A stretch of 64,000 bases of DNA from Gammaproteobacteria bacterium (GCA_004297335.1 SCUD01000069.1:39611-103610), one strand, 5' to 3'; counted from the first letter of the stretch, positions 16,066 to 43,299 are shown. The notes: generated from the sequence alone by a model not told the origin. A program made the numbers and translations.

Positions 16066-16625
16066 TGAACATGCGCGCCTGGCTGACGAGTGCTGTCCTG
16101 GCGTTACCGGTCCTGGCCCAGGTCGCCTCGGCGCCGCTCGCGCTGGACGCTGCAGGCAGCCGGATTTCGGTCAGGGCCAGCCAGATGGGCGTGCCGATCG
16201 AGGGCGAGTTTCGCCGCATCGAGGCCGAGCTCGACTTCGACCCGGCCAGGCCCGCGGCCGGAAGCGCCCGGGTCCGGATCGAGGTCGGCAGCTTCGACCT
16301 GGGCGACGAGGAATTCAACCGCGAACTGCGGCGTCCGGAGTGGTTCGACGCCGGGCAGCACCCGGTCGCGACCTTCGCGTCGACCGGGATCACTCCTGCC
16401 GGTCCCGGACGCCTGGAAGTGACGGGCCAGCTGACGATCAAGGGCCGCACGGTGGCCGTGACCGTGCCGGTACAGCAGGCCAGCGACGGCAATCAGCAGG
16501 TTCTCGATGGCTCGCTGCCAATCCGCCGCCTGCAGTTCGGCATCGGCAGCGGCGCCTGGGCCGATACCTCGGTCGTTGCCGACGAAGTGGAGATCCGCTT
16601 TCGCCTCGTGGCAGCGGGTTTCTGA
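16065..16625 (+). CDS. YceI family periplasmic protein
   Basis: Signal peptide, then YceI-like beta-barrel sequence ([33 protein letters not shown]). The start overlaps the upstream stop. Confidence 0.8.
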
Positions 16626-16651
16626 TTCTCGCCCCACATCAGCCCCGGAGA

Positions 16652-17224
16652 ATGATCAAGATGAACACGAGAGGATTCGCCGCCACCCTGCTGCTCACCC
16701 CGGCGCTCGCGCTCGCGCAGACCTACCAGATCGATCCGGCTCACACTTACCCGAGTTTCGAGGCCAGTCACATGGGCATCTCGGTCTGGCGCGGCAAGTT
16801 CACTCGCAGCTCCGGAACCGTGACGCTCGATCGCACGGCGAAGTCCGGCACCGTGGATATCCAGATCGATGCATCCTCGATCAATTTCGGCCACGCGCAG
16901 CTGGAGGAGCACGCCCGCGGGCCGGACTTCTTCAACGTCGAGCGGTTCCCGACTGTCACCTACAAAGGCACGATCGCGAGCTGGAACGGCGACGCTCCAG
17001 CGACCGTCGAAGGTGAGCTGACACTGCTGGGGCAATCCCGCGCGATGACCCTGAGCATCCACTCATTCAAGTGCATCGAGCACCCGATGTTCAAACGGGA
17101 GGTCTGCGGCGCCGACGCATCGACCAGCTTCCGGCGCTCGGATTTCGGCATGAGCTACGGCTTGCCGCGCCATGGCGACGATGTCCGGCTGGCAATCCAG
17201 GTCGAGGCGCTGCTGGCGGAATAA
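16652..17224 (+). CDS. YceI family periplasmic protein
   Basis: Signal peptide [23 protein letters not shown], then [26 protein letters not shown], typical of YceI. A GGAG RBS lies before the ATG at 16652. The longer ORF from 16340 overlaps the previous gene. Confidence 0.85.
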
Positions 17225-17243
17225 GCCGCAGCGACCTCGGGGT

Positions 17244-18617
17244 TCAGCGTTGCGTGCCGGCCTGGTCGGCGCGGTCCGCGGCCAGACTCGCCATTGCCGG
17301 ATGCTGGCCGCCGGCCAGGCCCTCGATGAAGCGCAGGTTGCGATTGACCGTGCCCTGGATGTGCCGGACATCCTCGTCCGCCAGGTGCCTGAACTTGCCG
17401 AGCACCCGCAGGTACTCCGTGATCGCGACCGGGCGCCCGGGGTCCCGACTCAGGCGCAGGCCCTCGCCGGGCGCGAACTCCCACAACAGCACGAAGTTCG
17501 ACTCCACGGCCTTGCGTGCGACTTCCATGTTGTCCTGCGACGGAAACCGCCAGCCGGTCGTGCAGGGCGAGTAGATGTGCAGGTAGGCAAAGCCACGTTT
17601 CGAGGCGTCGATCGCCCGGTCCAGCTTGGCGTAGAGATCTTCCATGAATCCGGTCGAGGCCGTCGCGACGTACTCGCAGTTGTGCATCATCATCAGGACC
17701 GGCAGGTTCTTGGCGTCCTGGGTCTTGCCACGGCCGCGTTCGCCGACCGGGGTCGTCGAGGTCCAGGCGCCGAACGGCGTGCAGCTCGAGCGCTGCATAC
17801 CGGTATTCATGTAGCCCTCGTTGTCGACGCAGATGAAGAGGATCTGCTCACCGCGCTCGGCGGCGCCGGACAGCGACTGGAAACCGACGTCCGCCGCACC
17901 ACCGTCGCCGGCGAGCGCGACCGCGTTCACCTCGCGCCCCAGGCGCCGGTACTGGCGCTTGATGCCGGTCAGCATCGAGGCGGTGTTGGTCAGCAGCGGG
18001 TGAAAGACCGGCACCTTGGTACCGGTCAGGCCGTTGTATCCAACTGCACCCATGCCCGGGATGCAGCCCGGCGGCGTGGCCAGCACGGTGTCCGGACCGA
18101 TGCGGCGCAGCGTGTGTCGCATGACGAGCTCGGTGTTGCAGCCCTGGCATCCCGAGAGCCCCGGGGCAAACAGGTCCTCGAGATCACCAACCTCATTGTA
18201 GATGCGCGCCGTCGTGATATATCGCAACGCACCGGTATCGCAGACCTTTACGCAAGCCGGATCGCCGTCGCAGGTGTCGCACTTGACCACGTGCCTTTCC
18301 GCCGCGTTATAGACGATGCCGCCGTAGGCGCAGCCCACGGTGCACAGCAGGCAGTTGACGCACTTGCTGCCATCCCAGGCGATGACCCCATCGTCGCCGT
18401 GCTTGTCCAGCGCGGCCGCCGGGCAGCTGGCCACGCACTTCGGATCGGCGCACTGGCGGCACAGCGCCAGCGCATACGAGCCGTCGTCCGCGGCGATCTG
18501 GATCCGGGAATTGGCCGGATCCGCGCTGCCGGTCTTGACGCTGGCGCAGCTGCGCATGCAATCGCCGCAGCCATTGCAGAGTTCTGGGCGGAAGGCGATG
18601 GTGTTGTAGGCCGGCAT
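17244..18617 (-). CDS. 2-oxoacid:ferredoxin oxidoreductase beta (TPP-binding) subunit with an N-terminal poly-ferredoxin domain
   Basis: The first ~130 aa carry four CxxCxxC-type clusters (CNGCGDCMRSC, CRQCADPKCVASCP, CVNCLLCTVGC, CDTCDGDPACVKVC). The TPP-binding beta-subunit motifs follow (GCQGC, ALAGDGGAADVGFQ, CVDNEGYMNTG). Confidence 0.8.
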   Translation of the reverse strand: MPAYNTIAFRPELCNGCGDCMRSCASVKTGSADPANSRIQIAADDGSYALALCRQCADPKCVASCPAAALDKHGDDGVIAWDGSKCVNCLLCTVGCAYGGIVYNAAERHVVKCDTCDGDPACVKVCDTGALRYITTARIYNEVGDLEDLFAPGLSGCQGCNTELVMRHTLRRIGPDTVLATPPGCIPGMGAVGYNGLTGTKVPVFHPLLTNTASMLTGIKRQYRRLGREVNAVALAGDGGAADVGFQSLSGAAERGEQILFICVDNEGYMNTGMQRSSCTPFGAWTSTTPVGERGRGKTQDAKNLPVLMMMHNCEYVATASTGFMEDLYAKLDRAIDASKRGFAYLHIYSPCTTGWRFPSQDNMEVARKAVESNFVLLWEFAPGEGLRLSRDPGRPVAITEYLRVLGKFRHLADEDVRHIQGTVNRNLRFIEGLAGGQHPAMASLAADRADQAGTQR

Positions 18618-18633
18618 GCAGTGCGCCCCCGTT

Positions 18634-19887
18634 TCAGCGCCAGCTGCGCGACATGATGCGGCGCGCGACCGTCTGCGGGTCGGCCAGGAAGGCTGCGCGC
18701 AGCGGTCCCAGGTCGATGCGCCGCAGGATGAGTTCCCACATGATGCCCGGATCGAAGGGCGCGTTGATGCCGAAGATGCCGGTCAACTGGTCCTGTTGCA
18801 TCACGATCTTCAGGTAGCGCGCGCGATCGGCTTCGCGCAGCACCGTCTCGCCGATATCCTGGCGACCGACCGACACCGCCTGCTGGCCGAAGAACGTGTA
18901 GGTGTTGAGCGGTACTCCGCCGGGGTAGGGTCGCAGCGCAGGGTCGCCAGCCATTGCCTGCCCGGCGATGCGGCCCTGTTCGACGGCGTCAGGCAGGATG
19001 CCGTTGATGATCCGCGCCCCGGCATCCGTGCCGTAGAAATCCCGGGCCTGCGCGACGTCGCCGGCCGCCCAGACATTGCCGACACTGGTCTGCATGCGCT
19101 CGTCGACGAGGATCCCGCGATCCGTCGCGATGCCGGAATCGGCGATGCATTCCATCGCGGGCGCGACGCCGGTCGCGACCAGCAGCAGCCCGGCCGTGAG
19201 TTCCGAGCCATCGTCGAGCTGCAGCCGGATGCCGGCGCCATCGGCAGCGACTCCGGCCGCGCGGCGGCCCAGCAGCAGGCGCACGCCGCGGTCCGAGAAC
19301 GCGGACTCGATGATCGCGGCAGCATCCGCATCGAAGTAGCCGGCCAGCACCCGGGGCTGCAATTCCACGAGCGTGACCTGTACGCCCGCCTTCGCGAGGT
19401 TCTCGGCGGCATGCATGCCGATCAGCCCGGCGCCGAGCACCACGGCCTGTTTGACGGATGGCAGCGCGGCGTGCAGGCCGATCGCGTCATCGAGCCGCCG
19501 CAACACGTGGAACTTCACCCCCCGCAGGCCGGGAATCGGCGGCAGCTGTGGCGCCGCGCCGGTCGCCAGCAGCAGCCGCTCGTAGCCGATCAGGGAACCG
19601 TCGTCCAGCCGGAGCTGATTCGCCGTCGCCTCCACGGCGGTGACGGTGCGACCACGGAGCAGTTGGGCCTTCTGCTCCGCAAACCAGGCCTCGTCCTTCA
19701 GCGCTACACGCTCCGGCGCTGAGCGCCCGGACACGACATAGGGAAGTACCGTCGGCGAGTACGGGAGTGCATCGTCGCGCGTGATCATTGCGAGGCTGCC
19801 CTCGGCATCCTGCATGCGAATGGCCCGCAGCGCCTCGAGCCCGGCGTGGCTTGCCCCGACGATCACATAGCGGTTCGGCACCGGCAT
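18634..19887 (-). CDS. FAD-dependent pyridine-nucleotide-disulfide oxidoreductase family protein (ferredoxin/NAD(P) reductase-like)
   Basis: Two dinucleotide-binding motifs (VIVGASHAG and VVLGAGLIGMHAAE) and the distal FAD motif (WAAGDVA). It is inserted between the OFOR alpha and beta genes. Confidence 0.8.
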   Translation of the reverse strand: MPVPNRYVIVGASHAGLEALRAIRMQDAEGSLAMITRDDALPYSPTVLPYVVSGRSAPERVALKDEAWFAEQKAQLLRGRTVTAVEATANQLRLDDGSLIGYERLLLATGAAPQLPPIPGLRGVKFHVLRRLDDAIGLHAALPSVKQAVVLGAGLIGMHAAENLAKAGVQVTLVELQPRVLAGYFDADAAAIIESAFSDRGVRLLLGRRAAGVAADGAGIRLQLDDGSELTAGLLLVATGVAPAMECIADSGIATDRGILVDERMQTSVGNVWAAGDVAQARDFYGTDAGARIINGILPDAVEQGRIAGQAMAGDPALRPYPGGVPLNTYTFFGQQAVSVGRQDIGETVLREADRARYLKIVMQQDQLTGIFGINAPFDPGIMWELILRRIDLGPLRAAFLADPQTVARRIMSRSWR

Positions 19888-19888
19888 T

Positions 19889-21115
19889 TCAGCGGTCCTG
19901 CTCGTTGAGCCAGATCACGGCACCCAGGCCAGAATCGTCGGGCAGCGCACCAACGAGTTCAATCACACGGCCGAAGTGATCCGTCGTGAGATCGGCTCCG
20001 GCGAGCCCGCCGATGAAGCTCTGCGTCGCCGGCCGGCGGCGCGCGCTGTGCAGCGCCGCGATCACGTCCTGGTACAGGGGCCCGCAGTTCCAGCCAAAGC
20101 TCACCGACCGGTCGACGACGCCGATCCGGCTCGCATCGCCGAGAGCCTCGATCAGCGCCGCGACCGGGAACGGGCGGTAGGTCTTGACCCGCACCAGCCC
20201 CACCCGCTCACCACGCGCGCGGGCCTGGTCCACCGCATCCTTCGCGGCACCACTCATCGAGCCGATCGTGACCAGCGCACTCTCGGCGTCCTCCATCCGG
20301 TACGCCTCGACCAGCGCCGCATGCCGGCGTCCGATGAGCCGGGCCCAGTCCTCATGCACTTCAGCGATGATGCCGAGGGCATGCTGCATGGCTGCGCAGT
20401 GGCCCTTGCGATAGCGCACGAACATCGCCGGGCCGGGTCCGCCAGCGCCGCCGGTCAGCGGATCGACGCCCATTGGCCGCTCGGGATCGAGCGCGGCGTG
20501 CCAGTGCACCGCCGGCGGCGGCAGGAAGGCGTCGACGTCCGCCGGCTCGGGCAACTCGACCCGCGTCGCACCATAGGACAGGTAGTTGCCGTCATGACAG
20601 ACGTTGACCGGCAACATCACGCCGCGGTGCTCGGCGATCCGGTAGGCCATGATCGTCGTGTCGAGCACTTCCTGCACGGACTCGCAGTACAGCTGGATCC
20701 AGCCGGTCTCGCGCACGCTCATCGCGTCCTGGTGCCCGCCCCAGACGCTCTGCGGCGTCAGCGTGTCGCGCGTGACAATCGACATCACGATCGGGAGTCG
20801 CAGGCCCGGCGTGCGCAGGTACGGCTCGAACATGAAGGCCAGCCCGGGCCCGCAGGTGCCGGTGTAGGTACGCGCGCCCGCCAGCGCGCCGCCGTGCAGC
20901 ACCGACAGCACCGAATGCTCGCCCTCGACATCGACGATCTCGGCATTCAGCCGCCCGTCGGCCACGAACTTCGCCAGATACTCGACCAGCGAGGACTGCG
21001 GCGTGATCGGGTAGACGGCGACCATGTCCACGTGCGCCAGCGTCACCGCCCAGGCAGCAGCCTCGTTGCCATCGCAGACGATGGCCCGGGGACGCGGCTT
21101 CACCACGGCATTCAC
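19889..21115 (-). CDS. 2-oxoacid:ferredoxin oxidoreductase alpha subunit
   Basis: GNEAAAWAVTLAHVDMVAVYPITPQS is the canonical alpha-subunit N-terminus. The GTG at 21115 overlaps the delta stop (GTGA). The ATG at 21454 would overlap the whole delta gene. Confidence 0.8.
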   Translation of the reverse strand: MNAVVKPRPRAIVCDGNEAAAWAVTLAHVDMVAVYPITPQSSLVEYLAKFVADGRLNAEIVDVEGEHSVLSVLHGGALAGARTYTGTCGPGLAFMFEPYLRTPGLRLPIVMSIVTRDTLTPQSVWGGHQDAMSVRETGWIQLYCESVQEVLDTTIMAYRIAEHRGVMLPVNVCHDGNYLSYGATRVELPEPADVDAFLPPPAVHWHAALDPERPMGVDPLTGGAGGPGPAMFVRYRKGHCAAMQHALGIIAEVHEDWARLIGRRHAALVEAYRMEDAESALVTIGSMSGAAKDAVDQARARGERVGLVRVKTYRPFPVAALIEALGDASRIGVVDRSVSFGWNCGPLYQDVIAALHSARRRPATQSFIGGLAGADLTTDHFGRVIELVGALPDDSGLGAVIWLNEQDR

Positions 21116-21405
21116 GCGCCCTCCTCGATCATCCGGATCGCATGCTGCGGGCATTCGCGGGCGCAGATGCCACAGCCCTTGCAGGTGGCGAGGTTGAAAT
21201 CGAACCAGGCGGGCTTCTCGACCACGCACTGCACCGGGCAGTACAGCCAGCAGACCGCGCACTTGACGCAGCGCTCGCGGTCGATCACCGGCCTCATGCT
21301 CCGCCAGTCCCCTGGCAGCATGGGCGTCAGGCGCGTCGCGATCGGACAGAGATCGTCCGGGATCGTGGAGGCGTCGAACAGCGGCCGGGACTGACGCGTG
21401 GTCAT
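21112..21405 (-). CDS. 2-oxoacid:ferredoxin oxidoreductase delta subunit (2x[4Fe-4S] ferredoxin)
   Basis: 97 aa with CVKCAVCWLYCP and CKGCGICARECP. The ATG at 21405 overlaps the gamma stop (ATGA). Confidence 0.75.
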   Translation of the reverse strand: MTTRQSRPLFDASTIPDDLCPIATRLTPMLPGDWRSMRPVIDRERCVKCAVCWLYCPVQCVVEKPAWFDFNLATCKGCGICARECPQHAIRMIEEGA

Positions 21406-21974
21406 GCCGCGGCGCGCCGGTCGATATGGTGAACGATCGTGGCCGCATGACCACGCTCCAGGGCCCGCAGGTTCTGCTCGAGCCCCGCGTCGCGGAACTC
21501 GGAATCCCGCAGCGCCTCGCGCAGCGAATCCAGCGACACGAGCCCGGTGGTCCTGGCGAAGGCGCCCAGCATCAACGTGTTCGTGATCGACCGGCCGAAG
21601 ATCTCGCGGGCAATCGTCACCGCATCGCACAGCCCGACGGTCGCCACCTGCCCCGGAAACTGCAGCTCCGCGAGCGGCCTGGCGGTCGCCTGGACCCAGG
21701 TGCTGTTGTCGCGGATGCCGTCGAAGATATTGACGGCCCGGCCGACCGTCGGATCGATGCACAACACGCAGTCCGGACGATAGATGTTGGTCATCTGCCG
21801 GATCTCCCGCGAATCCATGCGCAGGAAACTGGTCACCGGGGCGCCGCGGCGCTCGAAGCCGAAGGATGGCACTGCGACGACGTAGTGGCCCTCGTGCACC
21901 ATCGCCGTGGCCAGAATGCTGCCCGCCAGCACGGCACCCTGCCCGCCTCGTCCGTGAATCCGGACCTCATACAT
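21402..21974 (-). CDS. 2-oxoacid:ferredoxin oxidoreductase gamma subunit
   Basis: The N-terminus MYEVRIHGRGGQGAVLAGSILA is the canonical gamma-subunit motif. 190 aa. Confidence 0.8.
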   Translation of the reverse strand: MYEVRIHGRGGQGAVLAGSILATAMVHEGHYVVAVPSFGFERRGAPVTSFLRMDSREIRQMTNIYRPDCVLCIDPTVGRAVNIFDGIRDNSTWVQATARPLAELQFPGQVATVGLCDAVTIAREIFGRSITNTLMLGAFARTTGLVSLDSLREALRDSEFRDAGLEQNLRALERGHAATIVHHIDRRAAA

Positions 21975-21986
21975 GCCGCTACCCTT

Positions 21987-22424
21987 TCATTCCGGGTTGC
22001 CCTCCTGGCACACCCGCAGGTAGGCCTCCATGCGCTCGCGCAGGTCTGGCGCAAATGGCTGCGGCCGGCCCTGCTGCATGTCGATGCTGACGATCACGAG
22101 GGTCGCCCGCAGCCGCAGCTCCCCGTCCACGCGGCCGTCGAAGCGCAGCCGGTACGAGGTGCGGCCAACCGCTTCCAGGACCAGCTCGAAACCGATGACG
22201 TCACCGAGGCGGCACGGGCGCAGGAAGTCGCACTCGATGTGGGCGGTCGGGAACCCGGTGCGAGTGGTCAGGATGCGCTGGGCGTACGGGATTCCGAGGC
22301 AGTTGCTGAACCAGTCCTCGACCGCTGCCTGGAACATCTCGAAGAAGCGCGGGAAGAACACGTACCCGGCCGGATCCGTGTGCGTGAACCGCACCAGCTC
22401 CTGATGTACGTAGCGGCCTTGCAT
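21987..22424 (-). CDS. hotdog-fold acyl-CoA thioesterase (4HBT/YbgC-like)
   Basis: 145 aa. VRFTHTDPAGYVFFPRFFEMFQAA matches the 4HBT-type catalytic N-terminal region. Confidence 0.7.
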   Translation of the reverse strand: MQGRYVHQELVRFTHTDPAGYVFFPRFFEMFQAAVEDWFSNCLGIPYAQRILTTRTGFPTAHIECDFLRPCRLGDVIGFELVLEAVGRTSYRLRFDGRVDGELRLRATLVIVSIDMQQGRPQPFAPDLRERMEAYLRVCQEGNPE

Positions 22425-22444
22425 GGCAGCCCGGCGCCCCCGGC

Positions 22445-22732
22445 TCAGGCCCGGAAGTGCGACGGTACGTCGCCCGAGAAGTCCTCGTCCGGGCTCAGCT
22501 GCCGCGCGCGCGCGAGCAGTTCAGCCTCACCCTCGACCCGGTCGGGATCCTGGATGCAGCACTCCTGCGGGCACACAGCGGCGCATTGCGGCTCGTCGAA
22601 GAAGCCGACGCACTCCGTGCACTTGGCCGGGTCAATGCGATGGATGGTCGGACCGGCGGTGATCGCCTCGTTGGGGCACTCCGCAGTACAGGCGTCACAC
22701 TGGTCGCAGCTGCTGGTGATGATGTATGCCAT
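22445..22732 (-). CDS. fdx: 2[4Fe-4S] ferredoxin, Alvin-type (Cx2Cx8Cx3CP second cluster, C-terminal extension)
   Basis: CDQCDACTAECP plus CTECVGFFDEPQCAAVCP, with a ~35 aa C-terminal tail. The ferredoxin that donates electrons to Thauera benzoyl-CoA reductase has the same architecture. Confidence 0.85.
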   Translation of the reverse strand: MAYIITSSCDQCDACTAECPNEAITAGPTIHRIDPAKCTECVGFFDEPQCAAVCPQECCIQDPDRVEGEAELLARARQLSPDEDFSGDVPSHFRA

Positions 22733-23612
22733 TTTCCTCGTCCTCCTTCAGGCCATGAATTGCCGCGCCGATCGCGCCGCAGTACTGCGCGTTCGGAGCC
22801 AGAATCGTCTTAATGTCCCCGAACCGCTCGGCGAACAGCGGCACGAGGATCGGGTGGTAGTTCATCACGCCCCCGGAGAATACCAGCGTATCGGTCGAAA
22901 TCGCGGTCATCTCCAGCACGCGCTTGACCACCGAACGGTACAGGGCGTAGATCAGGTTCTCGACCCGCTCCCCATGCATCAGGAGCTTGATGACCTCCTG
23001 CCCGGAAAATACCGTGCAATAACTGTTGAGCGTCAGCTCCCGGTCATGCCCGGCGGCCAGCCCCGGCAGCGACTGCATCGGCACCTCGAGCCGATGGGCC
23101 AGCTCCTCGATGTAGGCGCCGGTGCCAGCGGCACACTTGCGGTTGATCGCGAACTGGTCGACACGCCCCGGCGTTGCGCGGATCACCTTGGCATCCTGGC
23201 CGCCGATGTCAATGATCGTGTAGTCGCGATCGAGCTGCAACTGGTGCTGCACGCCCAGGAAGTGCGCCTTGATCTCGGTCAACTGGCCGTGGATGCCCTC
23301 GATGTGGCTGCGCCCGTAGCCAGTCGCATGAATCTGCTGCCCGGGCAGGAGCCTCGGCACGCCTCCGACCGGCGCGCCCGGCACGCGCTCATCGTCGACC
23401 AGCGGCGACAGCTCCCCGGTGCCGCCAGCCAGCGCGCGGTGCACATGCCCGGCGAGCGGGAACAGCGTGCGCTGCTTGCGCAGCAGCAGCACCCGGCCGC
23501 CGCGGTCCACGGCCGCCACCTTGATTTCCGAGCTGCCACAATCGACGCCCCAGAAGGTGGTGACGGCCGGCCCGGCCGCGGCAACCGGCGGATCGAGGGC
23601 GGCGGCGATCAC
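22695..23612 (-). CDS. BcrAD/BadFG/HgdC family ATPase (radical-enzyme activator)
   Basis: ASKHA motifs are present (GVDCGSSEIKVA, DIGGQDAKVI, NRKCAAGTGAYIEE, with the cluster-bridging Cys context). The GTG at 23612 overlaps the upstream stop (GTGA). The 3' end overlaps the ferredoxin start by 38 nt. Confidence 0.8.
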   Translation of the reverse strand: MIAAALDPPVAAAGPAVTTFWGVDCGSSEIKVAAVDRGGRVLLLRKQRTLFPLAGHVHRALAGGTGELSPLVDDERVPGAPVGGVPRLLPGQQIHATGYGRSHIEGIHGQLTEIKAHFLGVQHQLQLDRDYTIIDIGGQDAKVIRATPGRVDQFAINRKCAAGTGAYIEELAHRLEVPMQSLPGLAAGHDRELTLNSYCTVFSGQEVIKLLMHGERVENLIYALYRSVVKRVLEMTAISTDTLVFSGGVMNYHPILVPLFAERFGDIKTILAPNAQYCGAIGAAIHGLKEDEENGIHHHQQLRPV

Positions 23613-24793
23613 AGCGTCTCCACGAAGGCTTCGATCACGGTCGTGGACTGCTCGTCGGAGAAGCAACGCAGGTCGTTGAGGTCGCCGTCAATAACGACGC
23701 CCGGCAGCCCCTGCGCGCGCAGGCGTTCCGGCATCCCGTAGTGGCTGTTGGTATTGTTGGGGCAGGTTCGTGCCGCGTGGTAGACGATGCCGTCGATGCC
23801 GAACTGCCCGGCGAGGCGCAGCAGGTATGCCTCCTTGCACGCGTCGTCGCGGTTGATGAAGATCCGAGTATAGGCACGCGCCATGCTCGGGAGCGGCTGC
23901 CGGGGATCGAAGTCGGAAAAGATCCAGCTGTTGCAGTAGGTCGAGGCCACGACGGCCGCGCGATTGCGCTGGAACACCTCCGACAGGTGCCGCAGGCGCC
24001 CCCAGACCGGCATGCCCTCCCAGTAGATCCGCTTGCGCTCGCCAGGCACGGCAGCGGTCGCGGCGGCCACCCGGTCCTGCATCTCCGCCAGCAGCGCCCG
24101 GTAGTAATCGACCGCGATCTCCGTGCCGCGCAGCACGACGATCGGCCCCATGTAGATCGCCCCATCGAAGAAGCTGAGCGGGCTCGGCCGGGCAGTCCCG
24201 GTATTCAGCACCTCTTCCCACAGGTCAGTCGCCTCGCGCGAGCGCGCCACGGCCCGCTCGAGCTCCGCCGGATCGAGTTTCCGCCCGCTGATCGCCTCGA
24301 GCTGGACAATCAGGTGACGATACTGGGCGACGACATCGGCGACGTGCTCGGGGCGGACCTCGGCTACGTGCGTCGGCGGATGAATGCCCAGCAGCGGCAC
24401 CGACCAGCGACGGGCATACCAGCCGAACCAGTGCATCACATCCTTGCACTGGTTCGTGCAGTAGACCAGCACATCCGGCCGTGGCGCCTCCTCGAGGCCG
24501 TAGGCCTTGGTCAGCGGCGTCACGCCCTTGAGACAGGCACCGACATCGGAGGTCAGGTAGCTGCAGATCTCGGGCGAATAGCCATGGGCGTTGGCGACCG
24601 GAATCGTCTCGCTGCTCATTCGCGTCGCGCCGAGCAGCGCGCCGTGGTTCTCGGGGAAATAGACCGCGAAGCCCAGTGCGCGCAGGATCTCGGCCGGGCC
24701 GACCGAGGTGCACCAGGCGACCTTGCGGGCAGGATCGCGCGACGCCGCGCCGAGGTCGGCGAAGTAGTCGCGCATCACCTGCTTCAGGTCCAC
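23609..24793 (-). CDS. solitary 2-hydroxyacyl-CoA dehydratase / BcrB-BcrC family protein
   Basis: 394 aa. Family hallmarks: VAWCTSVGPAEILRALGFAVYFPENH, SPEICSYLTSDVGAC, VLVYCTNQCKDVMHW. No second dehydratase-type subunit lies next to it. Confidence 0.75.
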   Translation of the reverse strand: MDLKQVMRDYFADLGAASRDPARKVAWCTSVGPAEILRALGFAVYFPENHGALLGATRMSSETIPVANAHGYSPEICSYLTSDVGACLKGVTPLTKAYGLEEAPRPDVLVYCTNQCKDVMHWFGWYARRWSVPLLGIHPPTHVAEVRPEHVADVVAQYRHLIVQLEAISGRKLDPAELERAVARSREATDLWEEVLNTGTARPSPLSFFDGAIYMGPIVVLRGTEIAVDYYRALLAEMQDRVAAATAAVPGERKRIYWEGMPVWGRLRHLSEVFQRNRAAVVASTYCNSWIFSDFDPRQPLPSMARAYTRIFINRDDACKEAYLLRLAGQFGIDGIVYHAARTCPNNTNSHYGMPERLRAQGLPGVVIDGDLNDLRCFSDEQSTTVIEAFVETL

Positions 24794-24795
24794 TG

Positions 24796-25797
24796 CTACA
24801 CCCCGAGGCGCCGCAGCGACCGGTGGATGAACACGCCGATCATCTTCTTGCGATAGTCTCGCGGGAAGAAGTCCTGCTGGTAGGTGGTCGCGAATTTCCC
24901 GGCCCTGGCGCAGGCCTTGGCGACTACCTTTGACAGGCTCGCCCCGTCGGCGATCGCGTGCCGCCAGCAGCCGGGGTGGGTGCCGAGCCCGGTCAGTGCG
25001 ACCGACAACTCGAGCGGCTGGCCCGCAGCATCGCGGCGCACGCCGACCGCCACGCCGAGCGACGGGAAATCCAGCGCATTGCGCACCGCGAGCTTGTCGT
25101 AGTCGACCTGGAGGCCGGTCGCCGGCGGTATCTCGATCCAGCCGATGACCTCGCCCGGCCGCAGCACGTTACGCTCCATGCCGTCGTTCCGGTAGAAGCG
25201 GCGCAGCGGCACCCGTCGCTCGCCGCGGCCGCGCAACAGCACGAGCCTCGCCTCCAGCAACAACAGCACCGGTGCCGTGTCGGACACGAAGCGCGCCTGG
25301 CACTGCGGCAGCTGTCCACGCACCGCACTCTTGACGATATGGCACACGTCCCCGTCGACCTTGAAGCAGGGCGCGTGGACCGTCCGGTTCAAGGGACTCT
25401 GGTTGACGTAGATGCAGCGGTTATTGACCAGCAGGTTGCCACCGAGCGTCGCGCGGTTGCGGATCTGCGGGCTGGCGACCCGCCCGGCGGCGGCTGCGAG
25501 CGCCGGCTGATGCTGGCGCACCAGCGTACTGTCCACCAGGTCCGCGAGCCGCGTCAGGGCGCCGATCCGCAGCGTACCGTCGTCCTGGACCGCAATGCCA
25601 GCGAGCTCGCCCACGCCATTGAGCGATACCAGCACCTCCGGTGCCACCAGCCGCTGCTTCAGCTGCGGCATCAGGTCGGTGCCGCCCGCGGCGACGGCAA
25701 AGCGCCGTTGTTCGCGGCCCAGGCGCGTGAGCAGTGCCCGCAGCGCCGGCAGCCCGGCCGGCCGTTCGAACTCGAATCCGCTGAGTTGCGTGTTCAT
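24796..25797 (-). CDS. hcrB: molybdenum-hydroxylase FAD-binding subunit, 4-hydroxybenzoyl-CoA reductase beta-like (with 4-Cys insertion)
   Basis: CoxM/XDH FAD-binding domain (AAGGTDLMPQLK, RNRATLGGNL). A ~45 aa insertion carries four Cys (NNRCIY, HAPCFK, GDVCHIV, LPQCQA). Confidence 0.75.
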   Translation of the reverse strand: MNTQLSGFEFERPAGLPALRALLTRLGREQRRFAVAAGGTDLMPQLKQRLVAPEVLVSLNGVGELAGIAVQDDGTLRIGALTRLADLVDSTLVRQHQPALAAAAGRVASPQIRNRATLGGNLLVNNRCIYVNQSPLNRTVHAPCFKVDGDVCHIVKSAVRGQLPQCQARFVSDTAPVLLLLEARLVLLRGRGERRVPLRRFYRNDGMERNVLRPGEVIGWIEIPPATGLQVDYDKLAVRNALDFPSLGVAVGVRRDAAGQPLELSVALTGLGTHPGCWRHAIADGASLSKVVAKACARAGKFATTYQQDFFPRDYRKKMIGVFIHRSLRRLGV

Positions 25798-28178
25798 GCC
25801 GCACCTGCCTTGCGGATGGCGGCCAGGACCCGGTCGGGTCGCATCGGTACCTCCGTCAATCGTATGCCCACCGCGTCATGGATCGCATTGGCGATGGCCG
25901 GGATGATCGGCGCCAGCGGACCCTCGCCCGCCTCCTTGGCGCCGAAGGGACCCTCGGTCTCGTCACTCGGCGTCGGCACCAGGTCGACCTCCGGCTGCTC
26001 GAAGGCCGACGGGATCTTGTACTCGAGGAAACCGGCATTTTGCACGGCCCCGTCGTAGTGCACGATCTCCTCCATCAGCGCCTGGCCGAGGCCCATGTGG
26101 ATGCAGCCCTCGATCTGGCCCCGCACCGCGAGCGGATTCAGCATCGTGCCGCAGTCGTGGGCGCAGGTGGCCTTGTCGACCTTCACGAACCCGGTCTCCG
26201 GATCCACGGTGACTTCGACGATGAAGGCCGTGAAGCTGTAGGTCGGACTCAGTCCCGCCGCCGCGCCCTTGTAGTTGCCGCCGAGCTTTGGCGAGCGATA
26301 GGTCCCATGGGTCTGCAGGATGCCGGGCCCATCGAGCGCGCGGCGAACGGCATCGAGATACGGGACGCTGCGTCCGCTCCCCAGGTGCGTGACCTGGCCA
26401 TTGGCCAGGCGGAAACCGTCGTTGTAGTCCGGATTCGGGCCGAGATAGTCGGACGAGTAGTCCGGGCTGCGGCGCCCCTGGCGGAAGTAGTCCGCCGGCG
26501 GCTCCGGCTTTTCCCACGCCGGTGGCGGGAGCTCCAGCAACTGGCACGCGGCCGCAACCAGCAACCGCCGCATGCGGATGGCCGCATTGCGCGAGGCATT
26601 GCCGGCCATGAAGGTCACGCGCGAGCTGTAGCTACCGAGATCCACCGGGGTCAGCTGGGTGTCGGCGACGACGACCTTGACCTGGTCCAGGCCGACGCCG
26701 AGGACCTCGGCCGCCATCATCGCCAGGATCGTGTCGATGCCCTGGCCGATATCGGCGGCGCCCGAATACACGGTCACCATGCCGTCGAACTCGATCGTCA
26801 GGCGCACCGTACTGGATGGCCGGTCGTTGCGGTGGATGTGCGCAGCGCTGCCGCTGATATAGAAGCCGCAGGCGACGCCAATACCCTTGCCGTAGGGCAG
26901 CTTGCCGTACTTCTCGTTCCAGCCCGAACGCCGCATCGCCTCCTCGAGGCCGGCCTTCAGGCCGACCGAGGTGATCCGGAACTCGCTGGCGGTCAGCGTG
27001 TTGGGCCGGTGGATCATGTCAATCCGGCCCTGGCAGGGATCGACTCCCGCCTGGACCAGGGCCATGTCGAGCAGCACCTCGGCGGCGAAGCGCGGATTGA
27101 CGCCACCGTGACCGCGCATCGCGCCGCACATCGGCTTGTTCGTATACACGCGCCGCGAGCGGAAGCGCAGGTTCTCGATCCGGTAAGGGCCCTGCAGCAG
27201 CACGCCGTTGTAGTAGGTGGTCACGACGCCGAAGCTGCCGTAGGCGCCGCCGTCGATCAGGATATCGGCATCGATCCCGGTGATACCCTGCTGCGGATCA
27301 TAGCCAAGCTTCATCGTCAGCGTGGTCGGGTGACGACCGTGATGACTGATGAACACTTCCTCGCGGCTGAAGCGCAGGCGGATGTTGCGATTGGTCTGCA
27401 GCGCCAGCCGGGCGGCGATCATCTCGTGCGGGAACGGATCGCTCTTGCCGCCGAAGCCGCCACCCAGGTGCGGCTTGATCACGCGGATCCGGTGCTCGGG
27501 GATCTCCAGCACCTCGGCCATCGCCATGTGCAGGTAATGCGGCACCTGAGTCGCGCTGTATACGGTCAGATTGCCGCGCCCGTCGATCGCGACCTGGGTC
27601 GCGTGCGGCTCGGTGAACGCATGCGTCACCGAGGCGAAGGAAAAGCGCTTCTCGACCACGACCGGCGAGGCCGCGAATCCCGCATCGGGATCGCCGTAGC
27701 ATTGCTCGACCCGCTTGTGCAGGTTGTTGTCACGCCCGAGGCCCGGATGCAGCGGCTCGGCCACCGGCTTCAGTGCCACGCGCGGATCCAGGCAGGCCTC
27801 GGTCGGCTCGTAGCTGACCTCGATCAGGGCGAGCGCGGCCGCGGCGATTTCGGCGGTCTCCGCCGCCACGGCGGCCACCGGCTCGCCGATGTAGCGGACG
27901 CGGTTGCCGGCCATGGCCGGCTCGTCCTTGCTGATGACCAGCACACCGAAGGTCCGGCGGAAGTCGGCTCCAGTGACGATACCACGCACCCCGGGCAGGG
28001 CTGCGGCCCGGCTCGTATCCACCTTCAGGATCCGGGCGCTCGCGAACGGGGAGCGCAGGATCGCTGCGTGCAGCGGATTGTGCAGCGGTATGTCATCCGT
28101 GAAGCGCGCCCGGCCCATGACCTTGTCGCGGGAGTCGATCTGCGGCGTCGGCTTGCCGACGATGTTGTAGCCGCTCAT
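25794..28178 (-). CDS. hcrA: molybdopterin-binding large subunit of an XDH-family enzyme, 4-hydroxybenzoyl-CoA reductase alpha-like
   Basis: 794 aa. The N-terminus (VGKPTPQIDSRDKVMGRARFTDD) and internal blocks (GGGFGGK, CGAMRGHG, GAKEAGEGP) are typical aldehyde-oxidase/XDH Mo-subunit motifs. Confidence 0.8.
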   Translation of the reverse strand: MSGYNIVGKPTPQIDSRDKVMGRARFTDDIPLHNPLHAAILRSPFASARILKVDTSRAAALPGVRGIVTGADFRRTFGVLVISKDEPAMAGNRVRYIGEPVAAVAAETAEIAAAALALIEVSYEPTEACLDPRVALKPVAEPLHPGLGRDNNLHKRVEQCYGDPDAGFAASPVVVEKRFSFASVTHAFTEPHATQVAIDGRGNLTVYSATQVPHYLHMAMAEVLEIPEHRIRVIKPHLGGGFGGKSDPFPHEMIAARLALQTNRNIRLRFSREEVFISHHGRHPTTLTMKLGYDPQQGITGIDADILIDGGAYGSFGVVTTYYNGVLLQGPYRIENLRFRSRRVYTNKPMCGAMRGHGGVNPRFAAEVLLDMALVQAGVDPCQGRIDMIHRPNTLTASEFRITSVGLKAGLEEAMRRSGWNEKYGKLPYGKGIGVACGFYISGSAAHIHRNDRPSSTVRLTIEFDGMVTVYSGAADIGQGIDTILAMMAAEVLGVGLDQVKVVVADTQLTPVDLGSYSSRVTFMAGNASRNAAIRMRRLLVAAACQLLELPPPAWEKPEPPADYFRQGRRSPDYSSDYLGPNPDYNDGFRLANGQVTHLGSGRSVPYLDAVRRALDGPGILQTHGTYRSPKLGGNYKGAAAGLSPTYSFTAFIVEVTVDPETGFVKVDKATCAHDCGTMLNPLAVRGQIEGCIHMGLGQALMEEIVHYDGAVQNAGFLEYKIPSAFEQPEVDLVPTPSDETEGPFGAKEAGEGPLAPIIPAIANAIHDAVGIRLTEVPMRPDRVLAAIRKAGAA

Positions 28179-28714
28179 TGCGCGCCCGCCTTGCCGCCAC
28201 CGGCAGCCAGCGTGGCAGCCGTAGTCACGAACGCCTGCTCAATGCGGTTGTAGCCGGTGCAGCGGCACACGGTTGCGGAGATACAGGTCCGGATCTCGTC
28301 CCGGGTCGGCGTCGGCGTGCGCTCGAACAGGTGCACGCCGTTGATCACCATGCCCGGCGTGCAGAACCCGCACTGGATCGCGCCTTCGTCGACCATGGCC
28401 TGCTGCAGCGGATGCAGCACTTCTCCATCGGCAATACCCTCGATGGTCCGGATCTCGCTGCCCTCGACGTCGGCCGCGAGCAGCAGGCAGGCCAGCATCG
28501 GGCGACCGTCCACCAGGACACTGCAGCAACCGCACTCGCCAAGATCGCAGCCACGCTTGCTGCCGGTCAGGCCCAGCTCCTCGCGCAGGAACTCGAGCAG
28601 TGTGGTGCCAGGCTTCGCGATGGCCTGCTGCAGGACCCCATTGACGCGCAGGGCCAGCACCCGGGCGTCATTCACCCCGTGCTCGCGCGGCTGCGCCGGA
28701 TTCGATGTATTCAT
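28175..28714 (-). CDS. hcrC: 2x[2Fe-2S] small subunit of an XDH-family enzyme, 4-hydroxybenzoyl-CoA reductase gamma-like
   Basis: GCDLGECGCCSV and CGFCTPGM...CRCTGY motifs. An AGGAAGG RBS lies before the ATG at 28714. The longer ORF from 28912 is rejected. Confidence 0.85.
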   Translation of the reverse strand: MNTSNPAQPREHGVNDARVLALRVNGVLQQAIAKPGTTLLEFLREELGLTGSKRGCDLGECGCCSVLVDGRPMLACLLLAADVEGSEIRTIEGIADGEVLHPLQQAMVDEGAIQCGFCTPGMVINGVHLFERTPTPTRDEIRTCISATVCRCTGYNRIEQAFVTTAATLAAGGGKAGAQ

Positions 28715-28778
28715 CCTCTGCCCCTTCCTTCCATTGCCATTCGTTTCCTGTCTACCGAGGCTACACCTGCGCCTGAGC

Positions 28779-30788: not shown

Positions 30789-31711
30789 CAGAAACTCTCC
30801 GTACAACGCAATATCTTGTCGACAAAACTGATCGTCGGTGCCGGAACCCCGTGGCGGCGCGCGAGGCGTGCCAGCTCGCCACAGAGAAATTCGTTCTCGG
30901 TGACCTTGCCCTTCTCGACATCGACAAGGATCGACGGGCGGTGCTCGCCACCCCGGTCCAGGTAGGCCATGGCCTGCTGCGAATAATCCCCCGGCAGTTC
31001 GATACGTTCGGCGCGGCAGATCGCCATGCCCTCGGCGAGCATGTCCTGGACCATCGCCCGGGCCTCGGCCTGACCCATCACACAGCCCATGCAGTGACGG
31101 GTGATGGCGCAGAGGCTGCCCAGCGATGCGTTCAGCAGGGCCTTGCGGAAAACCTCATTGCGCCAGTCGGCACGGGCCTCGATCGGGAAGCCAGCCTCGC
31201 GCAGGTCGGTGGCGATCCGGTCAACCAGCGCCGGATCCACCTCCGGCGGTCGCGACAGCACATGGGTCTCGGAAAAGGTCACGACGACCTCGTTGCCGCA
31301 GGAGACATCACAGCCCATGTTGAGGACCATGCGCAGCGCACGCTCGGCACCGAATACCCGGGCGACGATGTTCTCGGTACCGATGCCGTTCTGGCACGAG
31401 ACGAACAGCATTTCCGGCTTCGGCCCATGCACGCGCAGCGTGCGCAGCAGGTGCTCGGTGTCCATGCTCTTGATGCAGACCAGCAGCACATCTGGCTGGG
31501 TCGCGACGAAATCGGCAACCTCGAGCAATACCTCATCGAGCTGGGCATAGGCCTGCAGGCAACCCTTCACGACCACCGGCCGTCGCTGCAGGATCAGCTG
31601 CGTCGGCGTGTGATGGCAGAGCACCGTCACGCGATGCCCGGCCTGGCGCAACAGCCCCGCGAAGACCCGGCCGACCGGCCCGGTTCCGACCACGCCGTAG
31701 TGCAGGCTCAC
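30788..31711 (-). CDS. ketopantoate-reductase (PanE/ApbA)-family oxidoreductase
   Basis: VVGTGPVGRVFAGLL Rossmann N-terminus with ApbA-like length and C-domain. Second paralog in the window. ATGA overlap with the ligase stop. Confidence 0.65.
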   Translation of the reverse strand: MSLHYGVVGTGPVGRVFAGLLRQAGHRVTVLCHHTPTQLILQRRPVVVKGCLQAYAQLDEVLLEVADFVATQPDVLLVCIKSMDTEHLLRTLRVHGPKPEMLFVSCQNGIGTENIVARVFGAERALRMVLNMGCDVSCGNEVVVTFSETHVLSRPPEVDPALVDRIATDLREAGFPIEARADWRNEVFRKALLNASLGSLCAITRHCMGCVMGQAEARAMVQDMLAEGMAICRAERIELPGDYSQQAMAYLDRGGEHRPSILVDVEKGKVTENEFLCGELARLARRHGVPAPTISFVDKILRCTESF

Positions 31712-43162: not shown

Positions 43163-43299
43163 TGGAAGAACTGCGCGTCACGCAATACTGGATGCTCGGA
43201 GTGGTCGCGACCATGGCGGTGTTCGCGATCGTGGCACTGATCGGATATCTGCGCCGCGGCCGCGGCAGGGTGAATCACCATGACAACCAGGTCCCGTAA
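43162..43299 (+). CDS. candidate 45-aa single-TM micro-protein (MEELRVTQYWMLGVVATMAVFAIVALIGYLRRGRGRVNHHDNQVP)
   Basis: The ATG overlaps the previous stop (TGATG). A GGAGGA RBS lies 7 nt upstream. One predicted TM helix and a basic tail. The 3' end overlaps the BKACE start by 20 nt. Confidence 0.4.
   Translation: MEELRVTQYWMLGVVATMAVFAIVALIGYLRRGRGRVNHHDNQVP

What the first reader, a model, noticed from the sequence alone, without database searches (positions are those of the whole stretch)
17244..21974. Five-subunit 2-oxoacid oxidoreductase with an FAD/NAD(P) subunit inserted between alpha and beta, and a poly-ferredoxin-extended beta
The gene order is gamma-delta-alpha-[FAD pyridine-nucleotide-disulfide oxidoreductase]-beta. 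The predicted products are about 190, 97, 408, 417 and 457 aa.

From memory, the phenylglyoxylate:NAD+ oxidoreductase of Azoarcus evansii (PadEFGHI) is such a five-subunit, FAD-containing OFOR that produces benzoyl-CoA. The NADP-linked 2-oxoglutarate oxidoreductase of Azoarcus also recruits a flavoprotein.

The enzyme here could therefore play one of two roles. It could be the low-potential electron generator for the Bcr/Hcr enzymes. Or it could be an aryl-glyoxylate-type decarboxylating enzyme that feeds aryl-CoA into the pathway. The extra ~130-aa four-cluster domain on beta is notable.
Basis: partly seen in the sequence, partly recalled or inferred. Interest (0 to 1): 0.6.

Follow-up and report, generated by a model that had tools for sequence, protein, structure and literature searches.

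The report
Ordinary phenylglyoxylate dehydrogenase operon padEFGHI
The five genes are a normal copy of the known enzyme PadEFGHI, which turns phenylglyoxylate into benzoyl-CoA and NADH during oxygen-free breakdown of phenylalanine and phenylacetate; the flavin subunit and the extended beta subunit are standard for this family, and only the gene neighbourhood is unusual.

Summary
Five intact, tightly packed minus-strand genes at 17244-21974 encode products of 190, 97, 408, 417 and 457 aa, in the order gamma-delta-alpha-flavoprotein-beta.

This is the canonical padEFGHI layout, not a new architecture:
- All five products pass NCBIfam's curated equivalog cut-offs for PadE, F, G, H and I.
- They are 55-73% identical to the genes of Aromatoleum (Azoarcus) evansii KB740, in the same order.
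- In a PadG+PadI tree they nest inside a clade of enzymes that mostly lie beside padBCD/padJ.
- The roughly 145-aa four-cluster extension of beta belongs to the PadI family model. Its 16 cysteines are invariant in 68 relatives.

The genome has one padEFGHI. It also has padBCD (76% identical to KB740 PadB) and a PaaK-like ligase on other contigs, so the phenylacetate-to-benzoyl-CoA route is complete.

Two small additions:
- The beta extension and PadH are homologous to AorA/WorS and AorC of tungsten aldehyde oxidoreductase, so the two "odd" features form one NAD+-coupling module.
- Here, and in one relative, the operon sits behind bcr, Hcr-like, ferredoxin and thioesterase genes instead of beside padBCD.

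The scan has reported Pad-like operons on other DNA before. Novelty is low.

The parts
21402..21974 (-). padE, gamma subunit (190 aa, 20.8 kDa)
   Evidence: Pfam POR, 118.8 bits. NCBIfam PadE equivalog NF045762, 324 bits against a cut-off of 300. 68-69% identity to KB740.
21112..21405 (-). padF, delta subunit (97 aa, 11.0 kDa), a 2x[4Fe-4S] ferredoxin-like protein
   Evidence: Two CxxCxxCxxxCP motifs in the translation. NCBIfam PadF equivalog NF045763, 160.4 bits against 150. 73% identity to KB740. Its start overlaps the padE stop by 4 nt.
19889..21115 (-). padG, alpha subunit (408 aa, 43.9 kDa, GTG start overlapping the padF stop)
   Evidence: POR_N + PFOR_II. NCBIfam PadG NF045764, 704.6 bits against 700, while PorA scores 374 against 550. 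66% identity to KB740. Nearest solved chains are 9bt4_B and 5c4i_A.
18634..19887 (-). padH, epsilon subunit (417 aa, 44.3 kDa), the FAD/NAD-binding flavoprotein
   Evidence: Pyr_redox_2. NCBIfam PadH NF045765, 605.6 bits against 475. 55% identity to KB740. The best solved relative is AorC, 8c0z_E, E 1.7e-44, aligned end to end. Invariant in 33 relatives: G11, S13, H14, A15 (FAD site); G152, G154, G157 (NAD site); and E175.
17244..18617 (-). padI, beta subunit (457 aa, 48.9 kDa), an N-terminal polyferredoxin domain fused to the TPP-binding core
   Evidence: NCBIfam PadI NF045766, 817.2 bits against 700, matching profile positions 2-438 of 443; PorB scores 279 against 405. 71% identity to KB740. 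Invariant in 68 sequences: C157, C160, C185 and C352 (proximal cluster), and GDGG 237-240 ... DNEGYMN 265-271 (TPP motif).
18183..18617 (-). Sub-part of padI: N-terminal four-[4Fe-4S] polyferredoxin domain (residues 1 to ~145)
   Evidence: 16 Cys in four groups (C14/17/20/24, C53/56/61/65, C86/89/92/96, C113/116/122/126), invariant in 33 and in 68 relatives. The nearest solved chains are WorS 9mqx_E (E 1e-23) and AorA 8c0z_C (E 1.1e-21). A model docks PadH onto this domain.
21987..22424 (-). Hotdog-fold thioesterase (145 aa) 12 nt upstream of padE; possible phenylglyoxylyl-CoA hydrolase (inferred)
   Evidence: Pfam 4HBT_2, E 9e-13. Conserved in the same position only in the closest relative L018 (80% identity). 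The published pathway needs hydrolysis of phenylglyoxylyl-CoA (PMC9765128).
22445..22732 (-). YfhL-type 2x[4Fe-4S] ferredoxin (95 aa); context, probably the benzoyl-CoA reductase electron donor
   Evidence: NCBIfam NF033683, 99.1 bits against 86. 91% identical and syntenic in L018.

Best explanation
The five genes encode phenylglyoxylate:NAD+ oxidoreductase (CoA-benzoylating), PadEFGHI. This is the last enzyme of the anaerobic alpha-oxidation route from phenylacetate or phenylalanine to benzoyl-CoA.

Proposed mechanism:
- Shown at the level of sequence homology: PadG/PadI/PadE form a pyruvate-oxidoreductase-type thiamine-diphosphate core. It decarboxylates phenylglyoxylate and transfers the benzoyl group to CoA.
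- Inferred by homology: the two electrons leave through the proximal [4Fe-4S] cluster of PadI, then the two clusters of PadF, then the four clusters of PadI's N-terminal polyferredoxin domain, and reach the FAD of PadH, which reduces NAD+.

The flavoprotein and the beta extension are thus one acceptor module, homologous to AorC and AorA of the NAD+-reducing tungsten aldehyde oxidoreductase.

In this genome the substrate would come from padBCD and a PaaK-like ligase on other contigs, perhaps after hydrolysis of phenylglyoxylyl-CoA by the thioesterase just upstream. The benzoyl-CoA product would go to the BcrCBAD reductase encoded in the same gene string.
For: - Family scores: all five products exceed the curated NCBIfam equivalog cut-offs for PadE/F/G/H/I (324/300, 160.4/150, 704.6/700, 605.6/475, 817.2/700). 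The next-best families (PorA/B/C/D, VorB, oxalate oxidoreductase, KorAB types) are all below their cut-offs.
- Comparison with the source strain: gene order matches the pad locus of Aromatoleum evansii KB740 (L087), with 68, 73, 66, 55 and 71% identity. That this is the strain the enzyme was purified from is my recollection.
- Tree: in a PadG+PadI tree of 68 rows, window+L018 (support 100) lies inside a starred 18-row clade in which 13 rows sit beside padB-like genes.
- Cofactor sites: these are invariant, namely 16 Cys in the N-domain, 4 Cys of the proximal cluster, the TPP motif, and the FAD/NAD glycine motifs with E175.
- Copy number and partners: there is one PadI-class gene in the 97.6%-complete genome. 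The genome also holds padB (76% identical), padC and padD (56%) on contig C9, and a PaaK-family ligase (50% identical to PadJ) on C85.
- Literature: PadJ, PadBCD and PadEFGHI are the described pathway (PMC5109826; PMC9765128).
- Module homology: PadH's best solved relative is AorC (8c0z_E, E 1.7e-44, full length). The PadI N-domain's best relatives are WorS (9mqx_E, 1e-23) and AorA (8c0z_C, 1.1e-21). AorC is the NAD-reducing cap of the AorA cluster wire (PMC10413684; PMC12318220).
- Complex model of PadI 1-150 with PadH: score 0.92, best of 3 controls 0.00. The mark was reached by 58 of 80 solved complexes and 2 of 110 mismatched pairs. Runs agree in at least 62% of contacts and the partner's pLDDT is at least 91. 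Because AorA-AorC is solved, this pass may reflect likeness to that structure rather than independent evidence.
Against: - No biochemical or expression data exist for this organism, so substrate specificity is inferred from orthology alone.
- PadG (704.6 against 700), PadE and PadF pass their cut-offs only narrowly.
- The operon is not beside padBCD/padJ, unlike most relatives. It sits behind bcr, Hcr-like, ferredoxin and thioesterase genes.
- The PaaK-like ligase scores below the PaaK cut-off (539 against 646).
- The window+L018 branch is fairly long (0.19) and carries a few changes at otherwise conserved positions, for example PadG N204H.
- The order of clusters in the electron path is modelled, not shown.
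Confidence: 0.85

Rival explanations
1. The enzyme is a PadEFGHI-type enzyme whose preferred substrate is a substituted aryl-glyoxylate, for example 4-hydroxy- or methoxy-phenylglyoxylate. It would yield a substituted benzoyl-CoA that the neighbouring Hcr-like molybdenum enzyme, or the corrinoid demethylase system, then processes.
For: - The operon is detached from padBCD/padJ. In two genomes it lies directly behind an Hcr-like three-subunit molybdenum enzyme and next to a corrinoid O-demethylase-type operon.
- The window+L018 pair has a longish stem and four shared departures at positions at least 95% conserved in PadG.
- From memory: anaerobic 4-hydroxyphenylacetate degradation via 4-hydroxyphenylglyoxylate to 4-hydroxybenzoyl-CoA has been described in denitrifiers.
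Against: - There is only one padEFGHI in the genome, and a canonical padBCD (76% identical to KB740 PadB) needs a partner.
- All five subunits pass the equivalog cut-offs.
- Departures from conserved positions are few and comparable to other rows: 5 and 2, against up to 12 elsewhere.
- The Hcr-like enzyme itself is below the 4-hydroxybenzoyl-CoA reductase cut-offs (791 against 995).
Confidence: 0.09
2. The enzyme mainly regenerates reduced ferredoxin for the ATP-dependent benzoyl-CoA reductase, taking the role of KorAB in Thauera aromatica. Electrons would leave from the iron-sulfur clusters to the ferredoxin encoded two genes upstream rather than to NAD+.
For: - A YfhL-type 2x[4Fe-4S] ferredoxin lies two genes upstream in the same gene string as bcrCBAD, and this arrangement is conserved in L018.
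- 2-oxoacid oxidation is low-potential enough to reduce ferredoxin (general knowledge).
- A seven-cluster chain could offer an exit site.
Against: - KorAB-type models score 27-55 bits for the beta subunit and at most 104 bits for alpha, against cut-offs of 364-402 and 399-579.
- The genome has two separate KorAB-type enzymes above the TIGR03710 cut-off, on C92 and C146.
- The NAD-type flavoprotein PadH is retained with invariant cofactor motifs, and a model docks it on the cluster chain.
- Electrons are available only when phenylglyoxylate is the growth substrate, so the enzyme cannot serve as a general ferredoxin reductase.
Confidence: 0.05
3. The enzyme is a generic pyruvate or branched-chain 2-oxoacid oxidoreductase (Por/Vor type) that happens to carry an NAD module, with no link to aromatic catabolism.
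For: The core subunits belong to the PorABCD/VorABCD superfamily. The nearest solved cores are a four-subunit PFOR (9bt4) and oxalate oxidoreductase (5c4i).
Against: - Por, Vor and oxalate oxidoreductase models are all well below their cut-offs, while the Pad models are above theirs.
- Most relatives lie beside padBCD/padJ.
- The window is an anaerobic aromatic catabolic island.
Confidence: 0.01

Closest known systems
PadEFGHI, phenylglyoxylate:NAD+ oxidoreductase (CoA-benzoylating) of Aromatoleum (Azoarcus) evansii KB740 and A. aromaticum EbN1 (Hirsch, Schagger and Fuchs 1998, as cited in PMC5109826)
   Same: - Five genes in the same order: gamma, delta, alpha, epsilon (FAD), beta.
- 55-73% identity per subunit.
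- The beta subunit has the same N-terminal four-cluster domain.
- The cofactor motifs are the same.
- Predicted masses of 48.9, 44.3, 43.9, 20.8 and 11.0 kDa resemble the five subunits I recall for the purified enzyme.
- padBCD and a phenylacetate-CoA-ligase-like gene are present in the genome.
   Different: - The operon is not adjacent to padBCD/padJ. It lies at the end of a long minus-strand string: bcrCBAD, CoA ligase, Hcr-like enzyme, HadB-like enzyme, ferredoxin, thioesterase.
- It belongs to the Rhodocyclales/Sterolibacteriaceae-type clade rather than the Aromatoleum clade.
- The activity is untested.
AorA-AorC electron module of the NAD+-reducing tungsten aldehyde oxidoreductase AorABC of Aromatoleum aromaticum (PDB 8C0Z; PMC10413684)
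   Same: - PadH aligns end to end with AorC (E 1.7e-44).
- The PadI N-domain aligns with the four-cluster polyferredoxin AorA (E 1.1e-21) and with WorS (E 1e-23).
- Both would link a low-potential catalytic site to NAD+ through a chain of [4Fe-4S] clusters and an FAD.
- A model docks PadH on the polyferredoxin domain.
   Different: - The catalytic partner is a TPP enzyme, not a tungsten-cofactor subunit.
- The polyferredoxin is fused to the N-terminus of beta instead of being a free subunit that forms filaments.
- This is homology of a module, not membership of the AOR family.
Four-subunit pyruvate:ferredoxin oxidoreductase PorABCD (PDB 9BT4) and oxalate oxidoreductase (PDB 5C4I)
   Same: They share the alpha, beta, gamma and delta core, the TPP site, the proximal cluster in beta and the two clusters in delta (E 7e-78 for alpha, 3e-57 for beta).
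   Different: - They have no flavoprotein and no N-terminal extension of beta, and their acceptor is ferredoxin.
- The window's subunits score below the Por, Vor and oxalate oxidoreductase cut-offs.
KorAB 2-oxoglutarate:ferredoxin oxidoreductase linked to benzoyl-CoA reductase in Thauera aromatica (from memory)
   Same: It is a 2-oxoacid oxidoreductase encoded near bcr and ferredoxin genes.
   Different: - It has a two-subunit architecture and belongs to a different subfamily.
- The window's subunits score far below the KorAB-type cut-offs.
- The genome has its own KorAB-type genes elsewhere.

Membership tests
PadEFGHI (NADH-dependent phenylglyoxylate dehydrogenase, EC 1.2.1.58) | Five adjacent genes in the order gamma, delta, alpha, FAD subunit, beta | tested here: met
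   ORFs at 21974-17244 have overlaps or gaps of at most 16 nt. The order is the same in the A. evansii KB740 locus L087.
PadEFGHI (NADH-dependent phenylglyoxylate dehydrogenase, EC 1.2.1.58) | Each subunit reaches the curated equivalog score of its NCBIfam model | tested here: met
   Scores against cut-offs: 324/300, 160.4/150, 704.6/700, 605.6/475, 817.2/700. Three of the five pass narrowly.
PadEFGHI (NADH-dependent phenylglyoxylate dehydrogenase, EC 1.2.1.58) | Orthology to the enzyme of the strain in which it was characterised | tested here: met
   Identity to KB740 is 55-73% over full length. There is a single copy in the genome. The window nests among pad-cluster enzymes in the tree. No outgroup was used; the root is at the midpoint.
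PadEFGHI (NADH-dependent phenylglyoxylate dehydrogenase, EC 1.2.1.58) | Beta subunit with an N-terminal four-[4Fe-4S] domain plus the TPP motif and the proximal cluster cysteines | tested here: met
   16 + 4 Cys and GDGG...DNEGYMN are invariant in 68 sequences. The PadI profile is matched at positions 2-438 of 443.
PadEFGHI (NADH-dependent phenylglyoxylate dehydrogenase, EC 1.2.1.58) | FAD- and NAD-binding epsilon subunit | tested here: met
   Pyr_redox_2/Pyr_redox domains. The two dinucleotide-binding glycine motifs and E175 are invariant. Cofactor content itself is not testable here.
PadEFGHI (NADH-dependent phenylglyoxylate dehydrogenase, EC 1.2.1.58) | Pathway partners that make the substrate: PadBCD and a phenylacetate-CoA ligase | tested here: met
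   padBCD lies on contig C9 (PadB 76%, PadD 56% identical to KB740). A PaaK-family ligase lies on C85 (50% identical to PadJ, but 539 bits is below the 646 cut-off). Neither is adjacent to padEFGHI.
PadEFGHI (NADH-dependent phenylglyoxylate dehydrogenase, EC 1.2.1.58) | CoA- and NAD+-dependent oxidative decarboxylation of phenylglyoxylate to benzoyl-CoA | not testable with these tools
   This needs an enzyme assay.
KorAB-type 2-oxoglutarate:ferredoxin oxidoreductase | Alpha and beta subunits reach the KorAB/OAFO family scores | tested here: not met
   - Alpha: TIGR03710 99 bits against 483; NF007206 75.5 against 579.
- Beta: NF008820 55 against 402; NF007207 27 against 364.
- True members are on C92 and C146.
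PorABCD / VorABCD pyruvate or 2-oxoisovalerate:ferredoxin oxidoreductase | Subunits reach the Por/Vor equivalog scores; there is no flavoprotein subunit | tested here: not met
   PorA scores 374 against 550, PorB 279 against 405, VorB-type 274 against 405, PorC 163 against 225. A flavoprotein subunit is present.
AorABC tungsten aldehyde oxidoreductase | Tungsten-cofactor catalytic subunit AorB together with AorA and AorC | tested here: not met
   Only the AorA-like domain and the AorC-like subunit are present. The catalytic part is a TPP enzyme. This is a shared module, not membership.

The most novel reading that the evidence does not exclude
In this lineage, and in the MAG behind L018, padEFGHI has been detached from padBCD/padJ and joined to the ferredoxin and benzoyl-CoA reductase genes. 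The seven-cluster chain might then hand part of the low-potential electrons from arylglyoxylate decarboxylation to the neighbouring ferredoxin, in addition to NAD+. That would fuel ring reduction of the very benzoyl-CoA the enzyme makes. Alternatively, the enzyme may have shifted to hydroxy- or methoxy-substituted arylglyoxylates that come from the adjacent demethylase and Hcr-like systems.
Probability: 0.1. Interest if true: 0.55.

Novelty: already known. Interest (0 to 1): 0.15.

Why it matters
This has little weight as a discovery. Standard pipelines would already name these genes, and the enzyme was purified in 1998.

The result is useful in three ways:
- It shows that the 'inserted' flavoprotein and the 'extended' beta subunit are family traits, so later readers need not flag them.
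- It completes an anaerobic phenylacetate/phenylalanine-to-benzoyl-CoA route in an uncultured betaproteobacterium whose sampled congeners lack the enzyme.
- It points out that the NAD+-coupling part of PadEFGHI is homologous to the solved AorA-AorC module. No PadEFGHI structure exists, so this gives a concrete structural model for electron flow in an enzyme that wastes low-potential electrons on NAD+.

Tried and rejected
- I guessed neighbouring NCBIfam accession numbers in the hope of finding PadB/C/D or PadJ models (NF045761, NF045767). They were unrelated families, MurU and rubrerythrin. I used the KB740 locus as the query instead.
- I tried to read Hirsch et al. 1998 by PubMed id, but it is not held. 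Subunit masses, iron content and substrate range of the purified enzyme are therefore from memory only.
- I searched two AOR papers for any mention of Pad or phenylglyoxylate and found none.
- A promoter and terminator scan of 16500-22900 found no sigma-70-like promoter and no minus-strand terminator after padI, which is uninformative.
- I looked for lineage-specific changes at conserved positions as a sign of a new substrate. There were only 5 in PadG and 2 in PadI, within the range of other rows, so I did not pursue this.
- I checked whether contig C101 could be a binning error, because no sampled relative has PadI. Its GC and tetranucleotide profile are typical of the genome, so I rejected contamination as an explanation on present evidence.
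- I considered a KorAB-like role and Por/Vor identity. Both were rejected on family scores and on the presence of separate KorAB-type genes.

Full report
**Observation**

- gamma, 21974-21402, 190 aa
- delta, 21405-21112, 97 aa
- alpha, 21115-19889, GTG start, 408 aa
- a flavoprotein, 19887-18634, 417 aa
- beta, 18617-17244, 457 aa

The gamma/delta and delta/alpha junctions overlap by 4 nt. The other two gaps are 1 and 16 nt. Third-position GC of 0.81-0.87 matches real genes of this 68% GC genome.

Pfam finds POR, two Fer4 motifs, POR_N + PFOR_II, Pyr_redox_2, and Fer4_11/Fer4_6 followed by TPP_enzyme_C.

**Identity**

NCBIfam has equivalog models for the five subunits of NADH-dependent phenylglyoxylate dehydrogenase. 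All five products exceed the curated cut-offs:

| Subunit | Score (bits) | Cut-off (bits) |
|---|---|---|
| PadE | 324 | 300 |
| PadF | 160.4 | 150 |
| PadG | 704.6 | 700 |
| PadH | 605.6 | 475 |
| PadI | 817.2 | 700 |

The next families are all below their cut-offs: PorA 374 against 550, PorB 279 against 405, Vor-type 274 against 405. Oxalate oxidoreductase and the KorAB types are also below.

The PadI profile is matched from position 2 to 438 of 443, so the N-terminal iron-sulfur domain is part of the family model.

A word-based search found thousands of relatives of the beta subunit. The best 120 are 70-95% identical, 424-475 aa long, and have the same domain set. Many are named phenylglyoxylate dehydrogenase beta subunit by their sources.

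**Comparison with the characterised enzyme**

A scan of species-representative genomes returned 80 loci. One is from Aromatoleum evansii KB740 (L087), which I recall as the source strain of the purified enzyme.

In L087 the order is padB, padC, padD, padE, padF, padG, padH, padI, padJ. The window's products are 68, 73, 66, 55 and 71% identical to KB740 PadE, F, G, H and I.

The pathway is described for Thauera aromatica, Azoarcus evansii and A. aromaticum EbN1: PadJ activates phenylacetate, PadBCD oxidises it to phenylglyoxylate, and PadEFGHI gives benzoyl-CoA (PMC5109826). Hydrolysis of phenylglyoxylyl-CoA is an intermediate step (PMC9765128).

**Phylogeny and context**

I built a maximum-likelihood tree from concatenated PadG+PadI: 68 rows, 852 columns, quick search, LG+G4, midpoint root, no outgroup.
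- The window pairs with L018 (support 100).
- That pair lies within an 18-row clade (support 97) of Rhodocyclales and Sterolibacteriaceae-like genomes.
- 13 rows of this clade lie beside padB-like genes.
- The Aromatoleum enzymes form the other large clade.

Many of the 80 loci carry padB/padD and often padJ next to padEFGHI. Only L018 shares the window's neighbourhood.

In L018 the order is bcrA, bcrD, Hcr-like C/A/B, ferredoxin, thioesterase, padEFGHI. Convergent YceI and cytochrome b561 genes follow, then the MTHFR-like and corrinoid genes.

The window has the same string with two extra blocks:
- CoA ligase / PanE-like / FadB-like
- HadB-like enzyme plus activase

**Is the pathway complete in this genome?**

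The assembly is 3.96 Mb in 187 contigs and 97.6% complete.
- It has exactly one PadI-class gene.
- Contig C9 carries padB (76% identical to KB740), padC and padD (56%). An 800-aa ADP-forming acyl-CoA-synthetase-like gene follows, which also follows the pad genes in KB740.
- Contig C85 carries a PaaK-family ligase, 50% identical to PadJ and below the PaaK cut-off.
- Two KorAB-type oxidoreductases lie on C92 and C146.

The single padEFGHI therefore has its usual upstream partners, and ferredoxin reduction has other candidates. This argues for the canonical role.

**Cofactor sites**

In 68 aligned PadI sequences the following are invariant:
- the 16 Cys of the N-domain
- the four Cys of the proximal cluster (C157, C160, C185, C352)
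- the TPP motif (GDGG 237-240 ... DNEGYMN 265-271)

PadF has two CxxCxxCxxxCP motifs.

In PadH, G11, S13, H14 and A15 are invariant, as are G152, G154, G157 and E175. I read these as the FAD and NAD sites. The acidic residue is typical of NAD rather than NADP preference; that is an inference.

Seven [4Fe-4S] clusters per protomer are predicted. The predicted masses are 48.9, 44.3, 43.9, 20.8 and 11.0 kDa.

**Mechanistic addition**

No Pad structure is solved.
- The core is nearest to a four-subunit PFOR (9bt4) and to oxalate oxidoreductase (5c4i).
- The N-domain of PadI is nearest to WorS (9mqx_E, E 1e-23) and to AorA (8c0z_C, E 1.1e-21).
- PadH is nearest, end to end, to AorC (8c0z_E, E 1.7e-44).

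In the tungsten aldehyde oxidoreductase of A. aromaticum, AorA is a four-cluster polyferredoxin wire. AorC is the FAD subunit that reduces NAD+ (PMC10413684; PMC12318220).

A complex model of PadI 1-150 with PadH supports this:
- The score was 0.92 and the best of 3 controls was 0.00.
- The mark was reached by 58 of 80 solved complexes and 2 of 110 mismatched pairs.
- The runs agree in at least 62% of contacts, and the partner's pLDDT is at least 91.
- Contacts centre on the second and third cluster motifs of PadI and on invariant stretches of PadH.

Because AorA-AorC is solved, the pass may reflect that likeness rather than independent evidence. The two AOR papers I searched do not mention Pad.

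**Rivals**

- *A shift to substituted arylglyoxylates.* The Hcr-like and demethylase neighbours suggest it, but there is only one copy of the operon. Lineage-specific departures at conserved positions are few: PadG N204H, G242A, P267A and K309R; PadI Q416D/E.
- *A ferredoxin-reducing role.* The nearby ferredoxin suggests it. The retained NAD module and the separate KorAB-type genes argue against it.
- *A generic Por/Vor identity.* The family scores exclude it.

**Verdict**

This is a known enzyme in a known gene order. The unusual points are its genomic placement, its absence from sampled relatives, and the AorA/AorC homology of its acceptor module.
- No PadI was found in 18 same-genus and 12 same-order genomes.
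- The contig's composition is typical of the genome.

The scan has already reported Pad-like operons on other DNA. Interest is low.

Noticed in passing
window 21987-22424 (-): A 145-aa hotdog-fold (4HBT_2) thioesterase lies 12 nt upstream of padE. It is conserved there only in L018 (80% identity) and is absent from the other pad loci examined. It could be the hydrolase for phenylglyoxylyl-CoA.
   Followed up: partly
G000 contig C9 (L098 965-7719): padBCD lies on another contig. It is 76% identical to KB740 PadB, whereas the PadB-like genes beside the window's closest PadI relatives are only about 60% identical to KB740. The two halves of the pathway seem to have different histories.
   Followed up: partly
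L098 5317-7719; L087 12741-14825; many pad loci: An ADP-forming acyl-CoA-synthetase-like gene of 700-800 aa accompanies pad genes in many genomes (68-80% identity to KB740's copy). It is often present where padJ was not found in the locus. It may be an alternative ligase, or may conserve energy from a CoA thioester.
   Followed up: no
whole genome G000 against relatives: None of 18 same-genus and 12 same-order genomes searched has a PadI-class gene. G000 (3.96 Mb) is larger than its congeners (1.5-3.1 Mb, many incomplete). The aromatic island looks like an accessory acquisition. Contig composition gives no sign of mis-binning.
   Followed up: partly
window 22695-33477 compared with L018 1-5700: Relative to L018, the window has two extra gene blocks inside the bcr-to-pad string: CoA ligase / PanE-like / FadB-like (33477-28779), and HadB-like enzyme plus activase (24793-22695).
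   Followed up: partly
window 43280-44221 (+): One product passes the equivalog cut-off for 3,5-dioxohexanoate:acetyl-CoA acetone transferase (514.7 bits against 430), an enzyme of phloroglucinol breakdown. It lies next to SDR, 3-hydroxyacyl-CoA dehydrogenase-like and sodium/solute symporter genes.
   Followed up: no
window 19889-21115, PadG residue 204: Asn is invariant in 66 other PadG sequences but is His in the window and in L018. It sits next to the invariant W205 and H206. The meaning is unknown.
   Followed up: no
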